The translations under genes were made by a program, and so were the position numbers. This document shows, piece by piece, positions 1 to 42,636 of a DNA stretch of 64,000 bases (positions are counted from its first letter, which is position 1; each line of letters starts with the position of its first letter). The notes below the pieces were generated by a model, which worked only from the letters and a program-made list of their open reading frames with translations, was not told where the DNA came from and did no database searches. The stretch comes from Candidatus Omnitrophota bacterium (GTDB taxonomy: Bacteria; Omnitrophota; Gorgyraeia; JAHJTE01), in contig JAHJTE010000002.1 of the NCBI GenBank assembly GCA_018830005.1, positions 7,053 to 71,052 on the forward strand, in the 5' to 3' direction.

Positions 1-2
1 AA

Positions 3-446
3 TTTAAACAAGAAGAAAATATAAGAATTCATCACTATTGCTTAATGAGTAATCACCTTCATTTGATGGACTCAATAGATCAACAGAGCAATCTTTCTCG
101 ATTTATGAAACGAGTAAATTTGTAGTATTTTTACTATTACCGCCGCAGGCATGATTATTCAGGCCATCTCTGGCAAGGTCGTTACAAAAGCAAAATTATC
201 TTAGACTACGTTTATCTTGTTCAGTGCGGAAAATATATCGAACTTAACCCTATTAGAGCACGTCTAGTACATAAGCCAAGTGATTATGAATTTTCCAGTT
301 TTAGGTTTTACGCCCTCGGCCACAAAGATAATCTAATAGATACAAATCCTTATTACTTAGAACTCGAAAAAAGCCCTAGAGACAGGCAATCTTCTTATCA
401 AGACTTGTTCATTGATGATTATATGGAAGAAAAAATGAAAATTTAA
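3..446 (+). pseudogene. IS200/IS605-like HUH tyrosine transposase (COG1943/RAYT-type) remnant, 5'-truncated by the window edge, with in-frame TAG at 123-125
   Basis: Frame-3 translation gives ...IHHYCLMSNHLHLMDS... (HUH motif), TAG, then GHLWQGRYKSKII..CGKYIELNPIRARLVHKPSDYEFSS, matching COG1943 transposases. TAG is a normal stop elsewhere in the window (e.g. the gene ending at 8560). Confidence 0.6.
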
Positions 447-601: not shown

Positions 602-1147
602 ATGGACAACGCAAAATCTATTTTAGTGGCTACAAATTCACAAAAGGTCTTAGAATTCTTCTTGGATCACCCGGGGAGAGAACTTACCGAGAAAGAAACA
701 CAAAATTCTGTTAAGGTAAGTAAATCCGGAACCAACTATGCTTTACGGGAACTTGCAAAGGCAAATTTTCTGCTTAGGGATAAGAAGGGTAAGATGTCCT
801 TTTATTCTTTAAATTACAAAAATCCCGCCATAAAACAACTAAAGGTATTAAAAATAATAATGTTTATACAGCCTATCATTAAGAAGTTAGCTGTGTCTTC
901 CTCGCAAATAACTCTTTTCGGCAGCTCTGCGAGGGGAGAGGATATTTCAGATAGCGATATCGATTTATTCGTTATCAGTAATAGCAAAAAGCAGGAACTA
1001 GAGAGGGTAATTGAGAAAATTAGACTAAAAAGGAAAATACAGCTAATCGTAGAGACAGAATTATTCCATACAGAGCTAAAGGTTAAATCGCCTGATTTTT
1101 ATGAACAGGTTCAGCGAGGCATTGTATTATGGAGAAGAGAACAGTAA
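602..1147 (+). CDS. Minimal nucleotidyltransferase (MNT, Pol-beta superfamily) antitoxin with N-terminal HTH
   Basis: GSSARGEDISDSDIDLFV is the GS-x9-DxD nucleotidyltransferase motif. Overlaps the downstream HEPN gene by 19 nt. Confidence 0.75.
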   Translation: MDNAKSILVATNSQKVLEFFLDHPGRELTEKETQNSVKVSKSGTNYALRELAKANFLLRDKKGKMSFYSLNYKNPAIKQLKVLKIIMFIQPIIKKLAVSSSQITLFGSSARGEDISDSDIDLFVISNSKKQELERVIEKIRLKRKIQLIVETELFHTELKVKSPDFYEQVQRGIVLWRREQ

Positions 1148-1566
1148 GTCCCGAATTTGGGGATTGTCTTAAGAGAAATAAAATAAGAGAGTTTTCTCAA
1201 GGAAAAAACTTGGTGGATAAAGAACTGCTTGCTGCTAGGACTGACCTTTCTGAGGCAAAAGATACCTTTCAAAGAGACAAGTTTAAGTGGGCGATTATTC
1301 AGGCATACTATTCTATGTTTCATTCTGCAAGAGCTCTCTTATATAACCAGAATTACCGAGAAAGAAGCCACCACTGTTTAATCGTTGCTTTAAAATCATT
1401 CTATGTGGAAAAAGGGAAACTCTCAGTGCGATTTCTTGAAGGACTTCAAAAAGCTAAGACGTTAAGAGAGAATGCTGATTATTATGACCAGTGGTCTCAA
1501 CTTGGTGCAAAAGAAATGGTTGCTTTAGCCGGAGAGTTCTTAAATAAGGCCGAGTCTATATTGTAA
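1129..1566 (+). CDS. HEPN domain toxin
   Basis: 145 aa. R-x4-H motif (RERSHH) in a helical context typical of HEPN. Paired with the MNT gene. Confidence 0.7.
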   Translation: MEKRTVSPEFGDCLKRNKIREFSQGKNLVDKELLAARTDLSEAKDTFQRDKFKWAIIQAYYSMFHSARALLYNQNYRERSHHCLIVALKSFYVEKGKLSVRFLEGLQKAKTLRENADYYDQWSQLGAKEMVALAGEFLNKAESIL

Positions 1567-1915: not shown

Positions 1916-2044
1916 ATGGTTAAAAAGCTTCTTTGTTTGTTGATTGTAGCAGTTTTTGCTTTTTCTTCTGCCGGAGCTCATAACCCCCAGCTAGAATTAG
2001 AATTTAATCTGGCAAAAGAAGACAAAAATAATAAAAATAAATAG
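1916..2044 (+). CDS. Small secreted peptide (42 aa), hypothetical
   Basis: Strong RBS aaaggaggg 6 nt before the ATG. MVKKLLCLLIVAVFAFSSAGA looks like a signal peptide, followed by a 21-aa charged mature part. Below the ORF-track cutoff. Confidence 0.3.
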   Translation: MVKKLLCLLIVAVFAFSSAGAHNPQLELEFNLAKEDKNNKNK

Positions 2045-2082
2045 TTTTTTTGATGGAATGGATAGAAGTAAAAAAGATAGCT

Positions 2083-3453
2083 TTAAATTTTACTCTCTAG
2101 CGCTTTGACTCTATCTTTAAGCTCGTCATTTTCCGCCTTTAACTCCTTAACAACCTCCAGTAAATAAATCGCAACTTTATCATATCTAACCGATTCCGGC
2201 ATACCTTCCTTGTTATAAACTACCAGATCAGGAATTATCTCGTCAACATCTTCCGCAATTAGACCAATTCCAGCTTTTTCCGTTGATTTCCAGTTGAATT
2301 TTACTGGATTTAATTTAAGAACCGTATCAGTATTGACTATTAGGTTTTGAATATTTTCTTTATACCTCTTACTAGAAACAGCCCTATAAACAACTCCGCT
2401 TGCATCCGCACTTAGATTTTGCATATCGCCGTCTATAGGTGCGCGGATTTTTAGATTTCCATTAACATCCAAAGCTTCAGTTGGAGCATCAGTCCTAACG
2501 CCAACACTACCGGCGCTACCTTTTGGAAATATTAAAAATGCGTCAGGGGTAGCTATAGTTTCTACAACATTTGAATGACCCCATGCAAATGTCCGATCAG
2601 CAGCAGTAGTCAATTGCATATTCTCTCCTGCTGCAAAGGAATGATCGCCTGCAGCTTCGTTAAATGAGCCGCCTACTATCATGGAATTTGTTCCTGATGC
2701 AGTATTTGAGAAACCACCTGCTACAACAGAACCTTGACCTGATGCTGTATTTAAACTACCGCCTGAAATAGTGGACGTGTTGGCTGATGCTGTGTTTCCG
2801 GCACCGCCACCAGCAACAGTAGAAAAATCACCGCTTGCAACGCAGAGGCTTCCGCCCGAGACTGTTGACCAGTCGCCGCTTGCTTCAGAGTTAAGACCAA
2901 AGGCAACAGAATAATCTCCTATATTGGCATCATCCCACTGATTTGGAAATGCTGCATTTATTGCTCCTGCACGGAAGGCTGCTTTTCTAGGATACCAGAT
3001 AAGCCTTGTACCTGCTCCAGATGTAATAAGCACATTGCCGCTGTTCATAGTTCCCCTAGCGATTATCCCGCCATCATTATTCAGATCAAGCTTGAATTCA
3101 GGAGTATTAGTGCCAATGCCAACCTGCCAAGTAAGATCATTTGGATGAATATCTGTTCCATTTTGCGTCCAAAGCCCGGTTAAAGGTTGCCAGGTAAAAG
3201 TAGCTCCGTCGCAAACAAGTATCTGATCCCCTGTGTTATAGTAACGTAAGGTTCCTTCTTCATTTGCTGCACAGGCAGCACCAGTGGCAAAATCATCATT
3301 AGGATAAAGCGTTAGTTCCTTATACACCCCGTGGGGTGCAGGGTAATAGGTGGTAATAGAAAGTTGTTCAGTAGCAGCAAAAGAGCTTGCACTGTGAAAA
3401 AAGAATGCCAAAAGCATAACAATGACTAAAAGTAAAACTTTATTTTTAAACAT
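2083..3453 (-). CDS. Secreted tail-fiber-domain protein: signal peptide, Gly/Ser-rich tandem repeats, C-terminal peptidase S74 intramolecular chaperone domain
   Basis: Start chosen at MFKNKVLLLVIVML (RBS ggagga). Repeats are of the SGDWSTVSGG / SGDFSTVAGG / SANTSTISGG type. C-terminus SSKRYKENIQNL...IGLIAEDV...ELKAENDELKDRVKALE matches the S-D-x-R-x-K-E-N-I autoproteolytic motif of phage tail-spike/endosialidase chaperone domains. Confidence 0.65.
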   Translation of the reverse strand: MFKNKVLLLVIVMLLAFFFHSASSFAATEQLSITTYYPAPHGVYKELTLYPNDDFATGAACAANEEGTLRYYNTGDQILVCDGATFTWQPLTGLWTQNGTDIHPNDLTWQVGIGTNTPEFKLDLNNDGGIIARGTMNSGNVLITSGAGTRLIWYPRKAAFRAGAINAAFPNQWDDANIGDYSVAFGLNSEASGDWSTVSGGSLCVASGDFSTVAGGGAGNTASANTSTISGGSLNTASGQGSVVAGGFSNTASGTNSMIVGGSFNEAAGDHSFAAGENMQLTTAADRTFAWGHSNVVETIATPDAFLIFPKGSAGSVGVRTDAPTEALDVNGNLKIRAPIDGDMQNLSADASGVVYRAVSSKRYKENIQNLIVNTDTVLKLNPVKFNWKSTEKAGIGLIAEDVDEIIPDLVVYNKEGMPESVRYDKVAIYLLEVVKELKAENDELKDRVKALESKI

Positions 3454-3647
3454 AGCTAAATCCTCCTTTTTAAATCGCTTGTTTTTCATCCAATATATCA
3501 TTAATTTAACACGCCCAGTAGAAATCGTCAATGTCTTTTGCGTTTTCTCTAATTAGAGTTGATATTTCACTTGACAAACCAATGGTTTTGATGAATATTA
3601 TTGTAAGCGAAGAAATAAACATAAAAAATAAAATCACCAGAGAAACT

Positions 3648-4309: not shown

Positions 4310-5314
4310 ATGACTAAAGTTAGATATGAGATTGATCCGCACAATAGATTGGTTTTAAAGGAATCAGGCAAAAGTACAAGGCTGAGTAGGTACCGCACAG
4401 TTCTCGACGGAAGATTTAAAACTGACAGTAAAAATTCTTTGATTTATCATGCCAAAATCCCCTCTCACACTAAAGAACTGCAACAGATTAAATTAAAGGG
4501 AAACTGGTCTTTAAATAAAAACCACGATCTTGTGTTTACGCTTAACAAATGGGGCAATCAAGTTGCAAAGAACAAATTGACGATAAAAGGGGAGCTGATT
4601 AATGTGGGAGGCGATGAAATAACCTTTGCAGTTATAAGTAGAGAGACAGCTAAAAAGAGATCAATCTATCTTTTAAAATTATCCGGTAAATGGAAGTCTG
4701 GTAAGGATAACGGGCTAGAGTTTGATGTCCAAAAGGATAAAGAGGCAGATACCCTGCATTTTCAAGGCTCCTGGAAACTCAAAAACAACCAATTGACTTA
4801 CAATTATAAAAAATATTCTGGCTCAAAAAGAAAAAAAGATGAGCAGGGTTTAACATTTTGTGGCTACTGGGATATCAAAGATAAATATCGCCTCTCTTAC
4901 GTAATGGATAAACCGTTAAAGTCAGGCTTTGATTTTAGGGCATCGCTTGCAGCACCAATCAGGAGTAAGGGACAATATGGCCTTAAATATAAATTAGGTG
5001 CAGGTCTAATAAGCAATGAGAAAACAAATAAAACCATAATAATTTTTGGAGAGTGGAAAATAAAAAAAGGCATTGGTCTAATCTTTGAAGTAAGATATGG
5101 AGAAAATTACCTTAACTCAATAGTCTTTGGCGGAGAGATGAGAATTAACAAAGATTATAGCCTAATCGTGAATTTGACGAGTAGAGAAAACAATGATCTG
5201 GGGATTAGATTGGAATTATCAAGAAGATTCTTTAATGACTATAAAGGGTTTCTAAGGGTTTTGATGGGGAAAGAGGAGAAGGCTGTTGAACTTGGTGCTG
5301 GCTTTAGATGGTAG
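4310..5314 (+). CDS. Hypothetical Lys-rich beta-rich protein
   Basis: 334 aa, alternating hydrophobic pattern, ends ...GAGFRW. No recognisable motif and no N-terminal signal peptide. Confidence 0.4.
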   Translation: MTKVRYEIDPHNRLVLKESGKSTRLSRYRTVLDGRFKTDSKNSLIYHAKIPSHTKELQQIKLKGNWSLNKNHDLVFTLNKWGNQVAKNKLTIKGELINVGGDEITFAVISRETAKKRSIYLLKLSGKWKSGKDNGLEFDVQKDKEADTLHFQGSWKLKNNQLTYNYKKYSGSKRKKDEQGLTFCGYWDIKDKYRLSYVMDKPLKSGFDFRASLAAPIRSKGQYGLKYKLGAGLISNEKTNKTIIIFGEWKIKKGIGLIFEVRYGENYLNSIVFGGEMRINKDYSLIVNLTSRENNDLGIRLELSRRFFNDYKGFLRVLMGKEEKAVELGAGFRW

Positions 5315-41176: not shown

Positions 41177-41839
41177 TTACTCGATAGTCAAAACAAATTC
41201 CTTACCGCCAAATGAAAGCACTACCTCTCTGGAACCTACCGAAATTACCTTAGCGCCTTTTATCGTATCGCCAACCTCAACAATCTGATCATCAATCAGG
41301 GCTAGATTGCGTCCCTCAGAAGAAACTATCCCATCAAGCGAAAGGGAGATCTCAGGACTTAAATGAAATAAGTTCTTCTTTGACTTCTTTTGAACTGGTT
41401 GGGCGCCAGAGGCTTCAGGCGTAGTCACAGGCCCTTCCTCAGTAACCTGCACTAAATATTTATCCTGGAACTTGAAAGCAAAAAGATAAAAGACTAAAAG
41501 GCTACCCAATAGTCCAAATACAATCATGGCAATAAAAGCAAAAGGGTTCATATGTCTAATATCATGTATAGTCCACATGTGCAGACGCGGGCGCTTTGTT
41601 GCCTTTTCCTTAGCAACATCTTTTTCCTGTTCAGCTATCGGCCGTGTGCCTGCTATAGGCTTAATAGGTTGCGTTAAGTCTTCGCCAGCAGCAAAACCAG
41701 AAGAAGTAATCCCACGAGTAGGAGTTTTATCCTTAGGTGCTTCTTGTGGTTTTTGCGACTCTTTTGATTCAGGTTCTTTGGCATGCTGAGAACTAAATCT
41801 GGACTGAGCCTTCTTTAGAGCGTCAAATATTATACTCAT
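41177..41839 (-). CDS. Type II secretion GspB/ExeB-like membrane protein
   Basis: N-terminal charged region, one TM helix, C-terminal ...LIDDQIVEVGDTIKGAKVISV..VVLSFGG resembling the T2SS-B domain. Overlaps the ExeA-like gene. Confidence 0.45.
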   Translation of the reverse strand: MSIIFDALKKAQSRFSSQHAKEPESKESQKPQEAPKDKTPTRGITSSGFAAGEDLTQPIKPIAGTRPIAEQEKDVAKEKATKRPRLHMWTIHDIRHMNPFAFIAMIVFGLLGSLLVFYLFAFKFQDKYLVQVTEEGPVTTPEASGAQPVQKKSKKNLFHLSPEISLSLDGIVSSEGRNLALIDDQIVEVGDTIKGAKVISVGSREVVLSFGGKEFVLTIE

Positions 41840-42636
41840 CCTAACTCCTCAATACATTTTTTTATCAAATCTCTTGATATAGTGTTTGTCTCTAGAACAA
41901 ATCCTGCCAGCAAGGCGCGGTCACAGAGAATATTGATTAGACGAGGCGTGCCTCCAGAGTAACTAAAGATTTCACTCAATGCATCCTGGCTAAATTCAAT
42001 TTTACTCTTTGCCCTGGCAATGTGCAAGCGATGTTTTATATATTCTTCCAATTCATCTCGCTCAAGAGGCAAGATATGGTAACGCACAGCAATCCTTTGA
42101 TTCAACTGTCTCAAGCTCGGCTGCTTCAGTTTGTCGCATAATTCTGGTTGACCAACAAGAACGATCTGTAAGAGCTTGAGCTTCTCTGTCTCTAGATTAG
42201 AAAGGAGACGAATCTGCTCTAATTGTTTTGAAGATAAGTTTTGTGCCTCATCAATTAAAATAACAACATTATTACCACAATTCGCCTCTCGTAGAAGAAA
42301 ATCATTCAAGGCGTTGATAAGGGCAAGTTTTGTGCGCGACTTTAAATTCAAACCAAGGTCTGCCATAATTGCCTGCAATAATTGGACTTGCGACAAATAT
42401 GGATTTAAGATAAATGCGGTTTTTGTACTCCTGTCTAGGTGGTTAAGAAGTGCTCTGCAGAGAGTGGTCTTGCCTGTTCCGATCTCACCTGTAATCTCCA
42501 AGATGCCTTTTCTATCTTGGATACCATAGACAAGGTGAGAGAAAGCCTCTTTATGCCTTCTACTTAAATAAAAAAAGGTAGGATCAGCCGTTACGTTGAA
42601 CGGCTTTTCTTTAAAACCATAAAAATTTTCATACAT
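41836..42636 (-). CDS. ExeA/GspA/MshM-family AAA ATPase
   Basis: ITGEIGTGKTTLCRALL Walker A and ILIDEAQNL Walker B with ExeA-like architecture. Confidence 0.7.
   Translation of the reverse strand: MYENFYGFKEKPFNVTADPTFFYLSRRHKEAFSHLVYGIQDRKGILEITGEIGTGKTTLCRALLNHLDRSTKTAFILNPYLSQVQLLQAIMADLGLNLKSRTKLALINALNDFLLREANCGNNVVILIDEAQNLSSKQLEQIRLLSNLETEKLKLLQIVLVGQPELCDKLKQPSLRQLNQRIAVRYHILPLERDELEEYIKHRLHIARAKSKIEFSQDALSEIFSYSGGTPRLINILCDRALLAGFVLETNTISRDLIKKCIEELG

What the first reader, a model, noticed from the sequence alone, without database searches (positions are those of the whole stretch)
2083..3453. Cellular secreted repeat protein with a phage tail-spike S74 self-cleaving chaperone domain, outside any prophage
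Sec signal peptide, about 7 degenerate Gly/Ser-rich 10-13-aa repeats (SGDWSTVSGG-like) and a C-terminal S-x-K-R-x-K-E-N-I motif plus coiled coil, characteristic of intramolecular chaperone auto-processing domains of phage tail fibres and endosialidases. No other phage genes nearby. Likely a trimeric beta-helical surface adhesin or depolymerase that self-cleaves after folding.
Basis: partly seen in the sequence, partly recalled or inferred. Interest (0 to 1): 0.5.

Follow-up and report, generated by a model that had tools for sequence, protein, structure and literature searches.

The report
Secreted self-cleaving adhesin fibre, Omnitrophota
This is a chromosomal gene of an uncultured Omnitrophota bacterium for an exported fibre protein with an adhesin-type head and a phage-type self-cleaving folding domain; cellular fibres of this kind are already described in the predator Bdellovibrio, so it is a new member of a known kind.

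Summary
Window 2083-3453 (minus strand) encodes a 456-aa protein with these parts:
- a Sec-type signal peptide;
- seven YadA/UspA1-type head repeats, with a period of 14-16 aa rather than the 10-13 aa reported;
- two VGxxTxxPxxxL capping loops;
- a C-terminal Peptidase_S74 intramolecular chaperone domain (Pfam E=2e-11; family profile against MyRF 7dc3, E=8e-19), with the invariant Ser360/Lys365 dyad and a terminal helix.

No phage genes lie within 10 kb on either side. None were found among 40 scanned ORFs of the window.

Relatives number more than 1,400, mostly from Omnitrophota. They share a conserved N-terminal module (TTYYPAPxGxY plus a Cys hairpin) placed directly after the signal peptide. 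That module was confirmed at 185 sites in species-representative genomes and at none in 2.9 million viral contigs. Relatives carry either S74 or other C-terminal tips. At one housekeeping site (SMC/ACP to FabV) they form arrays of 3-6 paralogs.

This is the architecture of the Bdellovibrio MAT (mosaic adhesive trimeric) fibres of Caulton et al. 2024, whose supplement already lists an Omnitrophica example. NCBI names this protein "tail fiber domain-containing protein".

Verdict: a cellular, Sec-exported trimeric adhesin fibre whose chaperone domain is shed after folding. It is a new member of a known kind and of modest interest. Trimer formation, cleavage and target are inferred. The undescribed N-terminal module is the more novel lead.

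The parts
2083..3453 (-). Whole coding sequence, 456 aa plus TAA stop. Identical to NCBI MBU2541148.1 / MFH1491927.1, named 'tail fiber domain-containing protein [Ca. Omnitrophota bacterium]'.
3461..3466 (-). Shine-Dalgarno sequence GGAGGA, 7 nt upstream of the ATG.
   Evidence: Read directly from the sequence.
3503..3531 (-). Promoter-like site TTGACG-17-TAAATT with an extended TG. Weak candidate only.
   Evidence: The number of such sites in the region is not above the shuffle expectation.
3376..3453 (-). Sec signal peptide, aa 1-26, with predicted cleavage at SFA|AT.
   Evidence: Sequence inspection; AF2 helix at aa 4-23; a hydrophobic segment is present in the family in 102 of 103 cases.
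3127..3375 (-). Conserved N-terminal module, aa 27-109. It comprises the motif LSITTYYPAPHGVYKEL (aa 31-47) and a Cys61...Cys81 hairpin (C..GTL.YY....L.C...W). Proposed cell-proximal docking domain.
   Evidence: Alignments (G67, C81 and W95 invariant; C61 at 90% or more). Found in 1,893 representative clusters, at 185 genomic loci and in 0 viral contigs. No PDB or viral fold match.
3085..3126 (-). Capping loop 1, QVGIGTNTPEFKLD (aa 110-123).
   Evidence: Matches the MAT/MyRF consensus V-G-G/N-pi-x-x-P-x-x-x-L. Conserved in the family.
2941..3084 (-). Conserved base of the head, aa 124-171 (..NDGGI.A.G...GAGTRLIWYPRKAAFRAG..).
   Evidence: Family consensus; AF2 pLDDT 79-94.
2575..2940 (-). YadA/UspA1-type head, aa 172-293: seven repeats of 14-16 aa (SxVxGGxxNxAxG).
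   Evidence: period; UspA1 3pr7, E=4.8e-17; Foldseek hits to UspA1, CbpF, BpaC, BoaA, YadA; AF2 pLDDT about 98.
2467..2508 (-). Capping loop 2, SVGVRTDAPTEALD (aa 316-329), just before the chaperone domain.
   Evidence: Aligns to MyRF GRVGINTDRPDEALV. The family profile covering this capping loop and the chaperone domain hits Bdellovibrio MAT crystal structures 8ojn and 8ond.
2086..2376 (-). Peptidase_S74 intramolecular chaperone domain, aa 360-456. Predicted scissile bond is V359|S360, with catalytic Ser360 and Lys365. It contains the GLIAEDV motif and a terminal helix at aa 424-455. The domain is predicted to be released as an 11-kDa fragment.
   Evidence: PF13884; MyRF 7.8e-19, phage S16 6f45 7e-15, 8jov 4e-13, T5 8hqz, GA-1 3gud; S360 nearly invariant at 90% or more, K365 invariant there; both invariant.

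Best explanation
The gene encodes a cellular, Sec-exported fibre of the MAT (mosaic adhesive trimeric) type.

Proposed course of events:
1. The signal peptide (aa 1-26) is removed.
2. Three chains are brought into register by the C-terminal S74 intramolecular chaperone domain.
3. That domain templates folding of the capping-loop stalk and the seven-turn YadA/UspA1-like beta-roll head.
4. The Ser360/Lys365 dyad then cuts the V359|S360 bond. This releases an 11-kDa chaperone fragment and leaves a stable 3 x 34-kDa fibre with a newly exposed C-terminal tip.
5. The conserved N-terminal module (TTYYPAPxGxY plus the disulfide hairpin) holds the fibre at the cell envelope. The head and tip bind a surface ligand on another cell or a substrate.

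Shown here: the domain architecture, homology of each part, conservation of the catalytic dyad, the cellular (non-viral) distribution, and the mosaic, multi-paralog family.

Inferred: trimer formation, cleavage, surface display, and the ligand or biological role. The suggested role is host or prey adhesion, in line with the proposed predatory or parasitic lifestyle of Omnitrophota.
For: S74 domain. Pfam E=2.3e-11, above the cut-off. A family profile of the capping loop plus chaperone domain hits MyRF ICA 7dc3 (7.8e-19), phage fibres 6f45 and 8jov, T5 8hqz, GA-1 3gud, and Bdellovibrio MAT structures 8ojn (Bd3182, 1e-9) and 8ond (Bd2133, 1.5e-9). Lys365 is invariant and Ser360 nearly invariant (90% or more) across 60 relatives; both are invariant across 18.

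Head. UspA1 3pr7 at E=4.8e-17. AF2 mean pLDDT is 82, with head and ICD above 90. Foldseek finds TAA heads and MyRF/ICD chains.

Cellular, not viral.
- The signal peptide is conserved in the family.
- The N-module was confirmed at 185 sites in species-representative genomes and at 0 in IMG/VR.
- Phage records match only aa 261-453, at 31% identity.
- Neighbours are housekeeping genes.
- Relatives lie in arrays of 6, 6 and 3 at the same SMC/ACP-FabV site, and as a pair elsewhere, never with phage genes.

Mosaic family. Of the 120 top hits, 48 have both the N-module and the ICD, and 30 have the N-module with other tips.

Literature. Bdellovibrio MAT fibres have a signal peptide, a conserved N-domain, a trimeric fibre and an S74 or other tip. 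Bd3182 cleaves at S782 and the S782A mutant does not. An Omnitrophica protein is listed as a MAT (PMC10769870). Omnitrophota are proposed to be predators or parasites (PMC10066038).
Against: - No trimer model could be made; only a monomer AF2 model was available. The TTYYPAP motif and both capping loops have pLDDT below 50 in that model.
- No route across the outer membrane is evident. The genome has a TonB-dependent receptor, so the organism is probably diderm. The protein has no beta-barrel anchor and no secretion genes lie next to it.
- Homology of the N-module to the Bdellovibrio MAT N-domain could not be tested, because no Bdellovibrio full-length sequence was available.
- This copy is solitary and short: 456 aa against about 650 aa, and 7 repeats against about 20.
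- There are no expression data.
Confidence: 0.75

Rival explanations
1. A tail fibre of a prophage, tailocin or extracellular contractile injection system encoded elsewhere in the genome, or a decaying remnant of one.
For: The C-terminal third matches many PHROG tail-fibre and baseplate families and phage proteins. eCIS fibres can carry S74 domains (papers listed). A pseudogenised IS200-like transposase and an orphan ICD fragment lie 2-3.6 kb away, so the neighbourhood is somewhat mobile.
Against: Particle fibres are assembled in the cytoplasm and lack Sec signal peptides, whereas here the signal peptide is family-wide. The N-terminal 260 aa have no phage match. The N-motif has 0 confirmed hits in 2.9 million viral contigs and no viral fold match. 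No phage or CIS genes occur within 10 kb, in 40 scanned window ORFs, or in four other genomic contexts.
Confidence: 0.04
2. A secreted enzyme of the tailspike or depolymerase kind that degrades a polysaccharide on target cells.
For: S74 domains are classically attached to endosialidases and other tailspike depolymerases (established knowledge, and the papers).
Against: The body is a left-handed YadA/UspA1-type beta-roll of 14-16-aa repeats, a fold known from adhesins. No glycosidase, lyase or right-handed beta-helix domain appears in Pfam at E<=1.
Confidence: 0.05
3. A released, not cell-anchored, soluble trimeric lectin or toxin-like factor. Alternatively, a periplasmic protein that never reaches the surface.
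For: There is no recognisable membrane or cell-wall anchor, no lipobox and no adjacent secretion system. Polymorphic Rhs/YD toxin genes lie about 6 kb and 8 kb beyond the window start.
Against: The strictly conserved N-terminal module shared by fibres with many different tips is most simply explained as a common docking element. This is what was proposed for Bdellovibrio MATs, which were shown to be surface-located.
Confidence: 0.12
4. An ice-binding or antifreeze beta-roll protein.
For: Weak Pfam match to LbR_Ice_bind (18.5 bits) and to PDB 3ult.
Against: The score is below the Pfam cut-off of 30 bits. The similarity reflects the shared Gly/Ser/Asn-rich beta-roll repeat. The TAA-head matches are far stronger.
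Confidence: 0.02

Closest known systems
Bdellovibrio bacteriovorus MAT (mosaic adhesive trimeric) fibres, S74 subgroup, e.g. Bd3182 (Caulton et al. 2024, Nat Microbiol, PMC10769870)
   Same: Both have a Sec signal peptide, a conserved N-terminal domain directly behind it, and a trimeric beta-structured fibre with V-G-x-x-T-x-x-P-x-x-x-L capping loops. Both carry a C-terminal S74 chaperone/protease with a Ser-x4-Lys motif. Both families also contain members with other tips and have many paralogs per genome. Both are cellular and sit in a (putative) predator. The family profile hits the Bd3182 and Bd2133 crystal structures. The paper's Table S3 already lists an Omnitrophica MAT.
   Different: The body here is a YadA/UspA1-type left-handed beta-roll head, not the triple beta-helix tip of Bd3182. 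The protein is much shorter: 456 aa against about 1,000 aa. The N-module (TTYYPAPxGxY plus Cys hairpin) could not be compared with the Bdellovibrio N-domain. No Bdellovibrio genome appeared among the best 80 of 185 motif loci, but that scan only sees the exact motif.
Phage S74 intramolecular chaperone domains: K1F endosialidase (3gw6), T5 L-shaped tail fibre pb1 (4uw8, 8hqz), GA-1 neck appendage (3gud), S16 long tail fibre (6f45)
   Same: C-terminal position, the S(S/D)xRxKxNI motif with a Ser/Lys dyad, the G-(L/F/V)-IA-(E/Q)-(D/E)-V core and a terminal helix. Matches are significant by sequence and fold.
   Different: Those proteins are cytoplasmically assembled virion parts without signal peptides, encoded among phage structural genes. 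This one is exported and chromosomal.
Trimeric autotransporter adhesins (type Vc): UspA1, YadA, BoaA, BpaC, CbpF
   Same: The head repeats are homologous (UspA1 3pr7, E=4.8e-17). Both are obligate trimers used for adhesion.
   Different: There is no C-terminal YadA-type beta-barrel anchor and no coiled-coil stalk. Trimerisation would be driven by a cleavable S74 domain. Polarity is presumably reversed, with the N-terminus cell-proximal.
Eukaryotic MyRF ICA domain (7dc3)
   Same: This is the best PDB sequence match to the capping loop plus chaperone module (E=7.8e-19). It includes GRVGINTDRPDEALV against SVGVRTDAPTEALD.
   Different: MyRF is a membrane-tethered transcription factor, and there the cleavage releases a DNA-binding domain.

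Membership tests
Peptidase_S74 / intramolecular chaperone auto-processing domain (PF13884) | Profile match above the curated threshold | tested here: met
   44.3 bits against a cut-off of 22, E=2.3e-11, aa 360-411. Family profile against MyRF 7.8e-19, 6f45 7e-15, 8jov 4e-13.
Peptidase_S74 / intramolecular chaperone auto-processing domain (PF13884) | Catalytic Ser and Lys five residues apart (S-x-x-x-x-K) | tested here: met
   S360-S-K-R-Y-K365. K365 is invariant and S360 nearly invariant (90% or more) in the 60-sequence alignment; both are invariant in the 18-sequence alignment. Aligned with the SDxRxK sites of MyRF and phage fibres.
Peptidase_S74 / intramolecular chaperone auto-processing domain (PF13884) | C-terminal to a trimeric beta-helix or beta-roll passenger | tested here: met
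   The domain occupies the last 97 aa, behind capping loop 2 and the YadA-type head.
Peptidase_S74 / intramolecular chaperone auto-processing domain (PF13884) | Autoproteolytic release after trimer folding | not testable with these tools
   Needs expression of the wild type and S360A/K365A mutants. Predicted products are 34.2 and 11.1 kDa.
MAT fibres (Caulton et al. 2024) | Sec signal peptide | tested here: met
   Sequence inspection. Family-wide in 102 of 103 cases. No predictor tool was available.
MAT fibres (Caulton et al. 2024) | Conserved beta-rich N-terminal domain directly after the signal peptide, homologous to that of the Bdellovibrio MATs | tested here: inconclusive
   A conserved N-module exists at aa 27 to about 110, continuing to about 170. 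It has no PDB homologue, as was reported for the MAT N-domain. No Bdellovibrio N-domain sequence or model was available for comparison.
MAT fibres (Caulton et al. 2024) | Capping-loop motif V-G-G/N-pi-x-x-P-x-x-x-L in the fibre | tested here: met
   QVGIGTNTPEFKLD and SVGVRTDAPTEALD. Profile hits to Bd3182 8ojn and Bd2133 8ond.
MAT fibres (Caulton et al. 2024) | Mosaic family: same N-domain, interchangeable tips (S74 or other), several paralogs per genome | tested here: met
   48 hits with N-module plus ICD against 30 with N-module plus other tips. 19 with ICD against 84 without among 103 motif ORFs. Arrays of 3-6 genes. Only one copy lies in this 64-kb window.
MAT fibres (Caulton et al. 2024) | Surface display and role in prey handling | not testable with these tools
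   Needs microscopy or genetics in an Omnitrophota culture.
Trimeric autotransporter adhesin (type Vc secretion) | YadA-like head repeats | tested here: met
   UspA1 3pr7 at E=4.8e-17. Foldseek TAA heads. The Pfam YadA_head and UspA1_rep matches are sub-threshold in this copy but above cut-off in relatives.
Trimeric autotransporter adhesin (type Vc secretion) | C-terminal 12-stranded beta-barrel translocator (YadA_anchor, PF03895) | tested here: not met
   No such hit at E<=1. The C-terminus is the S74 domain. The protein is therefore not a TAA.
Prophage, tailocin or eCIS tail fibre | Encoded among phage or CIS structural genes | tested here: not met
   for the window; for relatives.
Prophage, tailocin or eCIS tail fibre | N-terminal particle-attachment domain shared with viral fibres, and no export signal | tested here: not met
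   A signal peptide is present. The N-motif is absent from IMG/VR. No phage match covers aa 1-260. No viral fold match.

The most novel reading that the evidence does not exclude
The signal-peptide-proximal module (E/Q)x(I/L)T(I/L)TTYYPAPxGxY..LRL plus the Cys hairpin may be an undescribed, widespread surface-docking tag. It is found here mainly in Omnitrophota, in MAGs labelled Planctomycetia/Planctomycetales and in Elusimicrobiota. It heads about 1,900 protein clusters. Only about a fifth of those sampled are S74 fibres. The rest are small proteins (130-330 aa) with unrelated, often Cys-terminated tips, and some sit directly upstream of HxsABCD radical-SAM systems. On this reading, the module plugs an interchangeable repertoire of trimeric fibres and knobs into one envelope receptor. 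The 3-6-gene arrays at the SMC/ACP-FabV hotspot would then be the host- or prey-recognition repertoire of these ultra-small bacteria.
Probability: 0.3. Interest if true: 0.6.

Novelty: new member of a known kind. Interest (0 to 1): 0.3.

Why it matters
Omnitrophota are uncultured, mostly ultra-small bacteria proposed to live as predators or parasites. How they recognise partner cells is unknown. Published discussion has centred on giant ORFs and Tad pili (PMC10066038).

A large, diversifying family of exported fibres built from an adhesin head, a phage-type folding domain and a common N-terminal module gives concrete candidates for host recognition. It also extends the Bdellovibrio MAT concept to another phylum.

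For this particular gene the gain is modest. The architecture, the cleavage chemistry and even an Omnitrophica example are already in the literature, and the protein is already auto-annotated.

Tried and rejected
- The afdb50 fold library was not available. I therefore could not ask whether Bdellovibrio MAT N-domains share the fold of the N-module.
- The search for homologous proteins with the N-module profile returned only 14 short fragments and was uninformative.
It was repeated with 7 sequences.
- Literature searches for 'Omnitrophota' with 'tail fiber', for 'YYPAP', and for 'intramolecular chaperone' with 'YadA' found no description of this family or motif.
- NCBIfam has no model for the protein.
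- Cluster names for the best N-module hits were uninformative.
- Explanations considered and rejected: prophage, tailocin or eCIS fibre; type Vc autotransporter (no barrel); depolymerase (no enzyme domain); ice-binding protein (sub-threshold repeat similarity).
- The promoter and terminator scan gave nothing above chance.
Full report
**1. What is at the coordinates**

The finding corresponds to one gene on the minus strand. The mechanical ORF runs 2083..3531 from a TTG. The ATG at 3453 has a GGAGGA Shine-Dalgarno sequence 7 nt upstream, and both ENA and NCBI gene calls give this 456-aa product.

The protein is 100% identical to NCBI MBU2541148.1 / MFH1491927.1, [quoted passage not shown]. The window is part of a long chromosomal contig of an Omnitrophota metagenome-assembled genome. 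GC content at the gene (0.39) does not differ from the rest of the window (0.35-0.40).

**2. Check of each element of the observation**

- Signal peptide. The N-terminus reads MFKNK-VLLLVIVMLLAFFF-HSASSFA|ATEQ: a basic n-region, a 14-residue hydrophobic core and a small-x-small cleavage site, with no lipobox Cys. AF2 models aa 4-23 as a helix. I had no dedicated predictor, so this rests on sequence rules. It is backed by the family: 102 of 103 relatives from species-representative genomes have a hydrophobic segment directly upstream of the conserved N-motif, which sits at a median position of 32.
- Repeats. There are seven copies, anchored at aa 182, 196, 211, 227, 242, 257 and 272. They are spaced 14-16 aa apart with a clear self-similarity peak at lag 15. 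These are not generic Gly/Ser repeats. phmmer against PDB sequences gives the Moraxella UspA1 head 3pr7 at E=4.8e-17 over aa 189-298.
- S74 motif. SSKRYKENI lies at aa 360-368. Pfam Peptidase_S74 (PF13884) matches at E=2.3e-11 with 44.3 bits against a gathering score of 22. PHROG tail-fibre and baseplate families match the C-terminal third.
- Terminal helix. AF2 predicts a helix at aa 424-455.
- No phage genes. On one side lie YjeF_N, an unknown 334-aa protein, PilZ, a response regulator, HD-GYP, MGDG synthase, a lipid A acyltransferase, GT2, and cobalamin and ABC transport genes. On the other side lie a 42-aa ORF, a nucleotidyltransferase/HEPN pair, a broken IS200-like transposase, an Lnb_N-domain protein, DUF3015 and Rhs/YD toxin genes. 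Thirty further ORFs across the window are metabolic or housekeeping genes. They include a TonB-dependent receptor, biotin carboxylase, ThiC, PFK, pyruvate kinase and DHQ synthase.

**3. Anatomy**

An alignment of 60 relatives, an AF2 model built on it (mean pLDDT 82) and PDB comparisons give this layout:

| Part | Residues | Notes |
|---|---|---|
| Signal peptide | 1-26 | |
| N-terminal module | 27-109 | LSITTYYPAPHGVYKEL, then a hairpin bracketed by conserved C61 and C81 and ending in invariant W95 |
| Capping loop 1 | 110-123 | QVGIGTNTPEFKLD |
| Conserved base | 124-171 | ..GAGTRLIWYPRKAAFRAG.. |
| Head | 172-293 | seven-turn beta-roll, pLDDT about 98 |
| Short neck | 294-315 | |
| Capping loop 2 | 316-329 | SVGVRTDAPTEALD |
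| Linker | 330-359 | low confidence |
| S74 domain | 360-456 | pLDDT about 90 |

Foldseek of the model against the PDB returns trimeric-autotransporter heads (UspA1, CbpF, BpaC, BoaA, YadA) for the body. For the C-terminus it returns the MyRF ICA domain and the K1F, GA-1 and T5 chaperone domains.

A profile of the capping loop plus chaperone region from 18 relatives gave these PDB matches:

| PDB entry | Protein | E-value |
|---|---|---|
| 7dc3 | MyRF | 7.8e-19 |
| 6f45 | phage S16 fibre | 7e-15 |
| 8jov | tail fibre | 4e-13 |
| 8ojn | Bdellovibrio MAT Bd3182 | 1.1e-9 |
| 8ond | Bdellovibrio MAT Bd2133 | 1.5e-9 |
| 8hqz | T5 pb1 | 3.6e-7 |
| 3gud | GA-1 | 6e-5 |

Lys365 is invariant and Ser360 nearly invariant (90% or more) in the 60-sequence alignment; both are invariant in the 18-sequence alignment, as are G397 and A400 of the GLIAEDV core. 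The spacing S-x4-K is that of the catalytic dyad of endosialidase and MyRF S74 domains (established knowledge), and of the SDxxxK motif of the Bdellovibrio MATs.

**4. Cellular family, not a stray phage gene**

The homology search found more than 1,400 relatives. The named ones are overwhelmingly from Omnitrophota, and many share a contig. Their N-termini show the same arrangement: a signal peptide followed within a few residues by (I/L)T(T/S)YYP(A/S)PxGxY..LRL.P, then C..G(T/S)LY....L.YC...W.

Distribution of the N-module:

- A profile search against 1.84 billion representatives finds 1,893 clusters at E<=1e-3, and 871 at E<=1e-10. The module is almost always at aa 17-110.
- A pattern scan of one genome per species finds 185 confirmed sites. 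Most are in Omnitrophota, in MAGs labelled Planctomycetia/Planctomycetales and in Elusimicrobiota.
- A scan of 2.9 million IMG/VR viral contigs with a near-identical pattern (lacking only the last position) finds none.
- GenBank phages match only aa 261-453, at 31% identity.

Genomic contexts of relatives are chromosomal. Arrays of six, six and three paralogs sit between SMC/acyl carrier protein and a FabV-type enoyl reductase in three different genomes. A pair sits among pyrimidine and ribosomal genes in a fourth. None has phage genes nearby.

Within one six-gene array, the N-module/base and the S74 domain are the most conserved parts (45-58% mean pairwise identity). The head repeats are the least conserved (32-42%), as expected if the head is the diversifying, ligand-binding part.

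**5. Mosaicism**

Of the 120 best hits, 78 carry the N-module and 66 the S74 domain. Forty-eight have both. Thirty combine the N-module with other C-termini that have no Pfam model. One of those alternative tips is a second copy of the N-module's Cys hairpin (hhalign probability 92%).

I also took 103 N-motif ORFs without regard to S74. Nineteen have the S74 domain (median 644 aa). Eighty-four do not (median 258 aa), and 46 of those end in a Cys-containing tail.

**6. Comparison with what is known**

The closest described system is the MAT (mosaic adhesive trimeric) fibre family of Bdellovibrio bacteriovorus (Caulton et al. 2024, PMC10769870). Its features are:

- 21 proteins, each with a signal peptide and a conserved beta-rich N-domain of about 130 aa of unknown fold, proposed to bind a surface element of the predator;
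- a long trimeric fibre with V-G-G/N-pi-x-x-P-x-x-x-L capping loops, a motif shared with MyRF;
- a tip that is either an S74 chaperone/protease (13 proteins) or another adhesive domain (8 proteins).

Bd3182 self-cleaves at S782, and the S782A mutant does not. Several MATs are on the predator surface or in the invasion vesicle. Supplementary Table S3 of that paper lists an Omnitrophica protein (A0A2H0LB00, 713 aa, "S74-like") among MATs of predator-associated bacteria, citing the proposal that Omnitrophota are predators or parasites (PMC10066038).

The present protein fits every MAT feature I could test (see the membership table), with one caveat. I could not obtain a Bdellovibrio N-domain to test homology of the N-module, because the afdb50 library was unavailable and the PDB holds only MAT tips.

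It is not a trimeric autotransporter, because the defining beta-barrel anchor is absent. It is not a phage, tailocin or eCIS fibre. It differs from Bd3182 in having a YadA/UspA1-type head rather than a triple beta-helix tip, and in being short.

**7. Most likely mechanism**

The steps are inferred unless marked as shown.

1. Sec export and signal-peptidase cleavage after A26.
2. Registration of three chains by the C-terminal S74 domain, followed by C-to-N folding of capping loop 2, the beta-roll head, capping loop 1 and the N-module. The C61-C81 pair is likely to form a disulfide outside the cytoplasm.
3. Cleavage of V359|S360 by Ser360/Lys365. The dyad and its conservation are shown. The products would be a 34.2-kDa chain, as a trimer, and an 11.1-kDa chaperone fragment.
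4. Attachment through the N-module, with the head and the newly exposed C-terminal tip pointing outward to bind a ligand on another cell.

The weak points are the unknown route across the outer membrane, the unknown receptor of the N-module, and the lack of any trimer model or expression data.

**8. Novelty and score**

It is no longer surprising: it has been shown experimentally in Bdellovibrio, an Omnitrophica example has been published, and NCBI already names this protein from the same Pfam hit.

I rate it a new member of a known kind, with interest 0.3. The more novel lead is the N-terminal TTYYPAP/Cys-hairpin module as a phylum-spanning tag for a mosaic set of exported fibres and knobs, together with the paralog arrays at a conserved hotspot. 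I found no description of the motif in the searchable literature.

Noticed in passing
L001:13629-13967 (ENA contig k141_556995; about 180-510 bp beyond window position 1): An orphan 112-aa ORF that is only an S74 chaperone domain. L001 13651-13924 is 89.8% DNA-identical to codons ~354-445 of the window gene, so the copy starts about six codons before the cleavage-site Ser. It lies directly next to the broken IS200-like transposase. It looks like a truncated paralog or a spare chaperone cassette.
   Followed up: partly
window 1-445 (continues upstream in L001:13329-13577): An IS200/IS605-type Y1 transposase (PF01797) interrupted by a stop at window 123-125. The reading frame then continues in another frame (..GHLWQGRYKSK..), so it is probably a pseudogene.
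   Followed up: partly
window 602-1566: An overlapping nucleotidyltransferase (NTP_transf_2/Polbeta) and HEPN gene pair, a typical type VII toxin-antitoxin module. It lies between the transposase remnant and the fibre gene.
   Followed up: no
window 1917-2045 (+): A 42-aa ORF with a signal-peptide-like N-terminus (MVKKLLCLLIVAVFAFSSAGA..) and a Lys/Asn-rich tail, convergent with the fibre gene. It is also called as a gene in the ENA and NCBI annotations.
   Followed up: no
window 4310-5314 (+): A 334-aa protein with no Pfam hit. It has an internally repetitive pattern (..GNWSLNKNHDLVF.., ..GKWKSGKDNGLEF.., ..GSWKLKNNQLTY.., ..GEWKIKKGIGLIF..). It lies downstream of the divergently transcribed YjeF_N gene.
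   Followed up: no
L003:1791-14667, L004:3701-16011, L082:6081-11938: Tandem arrays of 6, 6 and 3 full-length fibre paralogs, plus a 121-aa S74 fragment in L003. In three Omnitrophota genomes they occupy the same site, between SMC/acyl carrier protein and a FabV-type enoyl reductase. This is a conserved hotspot with variable copy number.
   Followed up: partly
L022, L024, L033, L044, L056, L065, L066, L068, L071, L075, L078 (e.g. L044:7920-13130): In 11 of 75 loci, small N-motif proteins (128-333 aa, often ending in a Cys-containing tail) lie beside, mostly directly upstream of, radical-SAM genes. In L044, the one locus scanned, these are a His-Xaa-Ser radical-SAM system: HxsD at 59.5 bits (cut-off 50), HxsB at 474.7 bits (cut-off 370), plus HxsC-like and HxsA-like genes below their cut-offs. 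The link between this uncharacterised system and the N-motif family is unexplained.
   Followed up: partly
P0138, P0147, P0161, P0179, P0237 (hits): Proteins of 1,000-1,900 aa carry 7-19 tandem copies of the Cys-hairpin part of the N-module (profile positions ~25-81). The hairpin is therefore an independent, repeatable domain. It also recurs as a C-terminal tip in six fibre paralogs.
   Followed up: partly
L001:17384-18625 and L001:19496-20743: Two paralogous Rhs/YD-shell (TEN_YD-shell) polymorphic-toxin C-terminal genes with divergent tails, each followed by small genes. They lie about 6 kb and 8 kb beyond the window start.
   Followed up: no
window 2083-3453 compared with the rest of the window: The fibre gene is one of only three large minus-strand genes in a 64-kb window that is otherwise transcribed on the plus strand (the others are at 41177-42636). 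It sits at the border between a housekeeping block and a mobile, variable stretch containing the IS remnant, the TA pair and the Rhs toxins.
   Followed up: no
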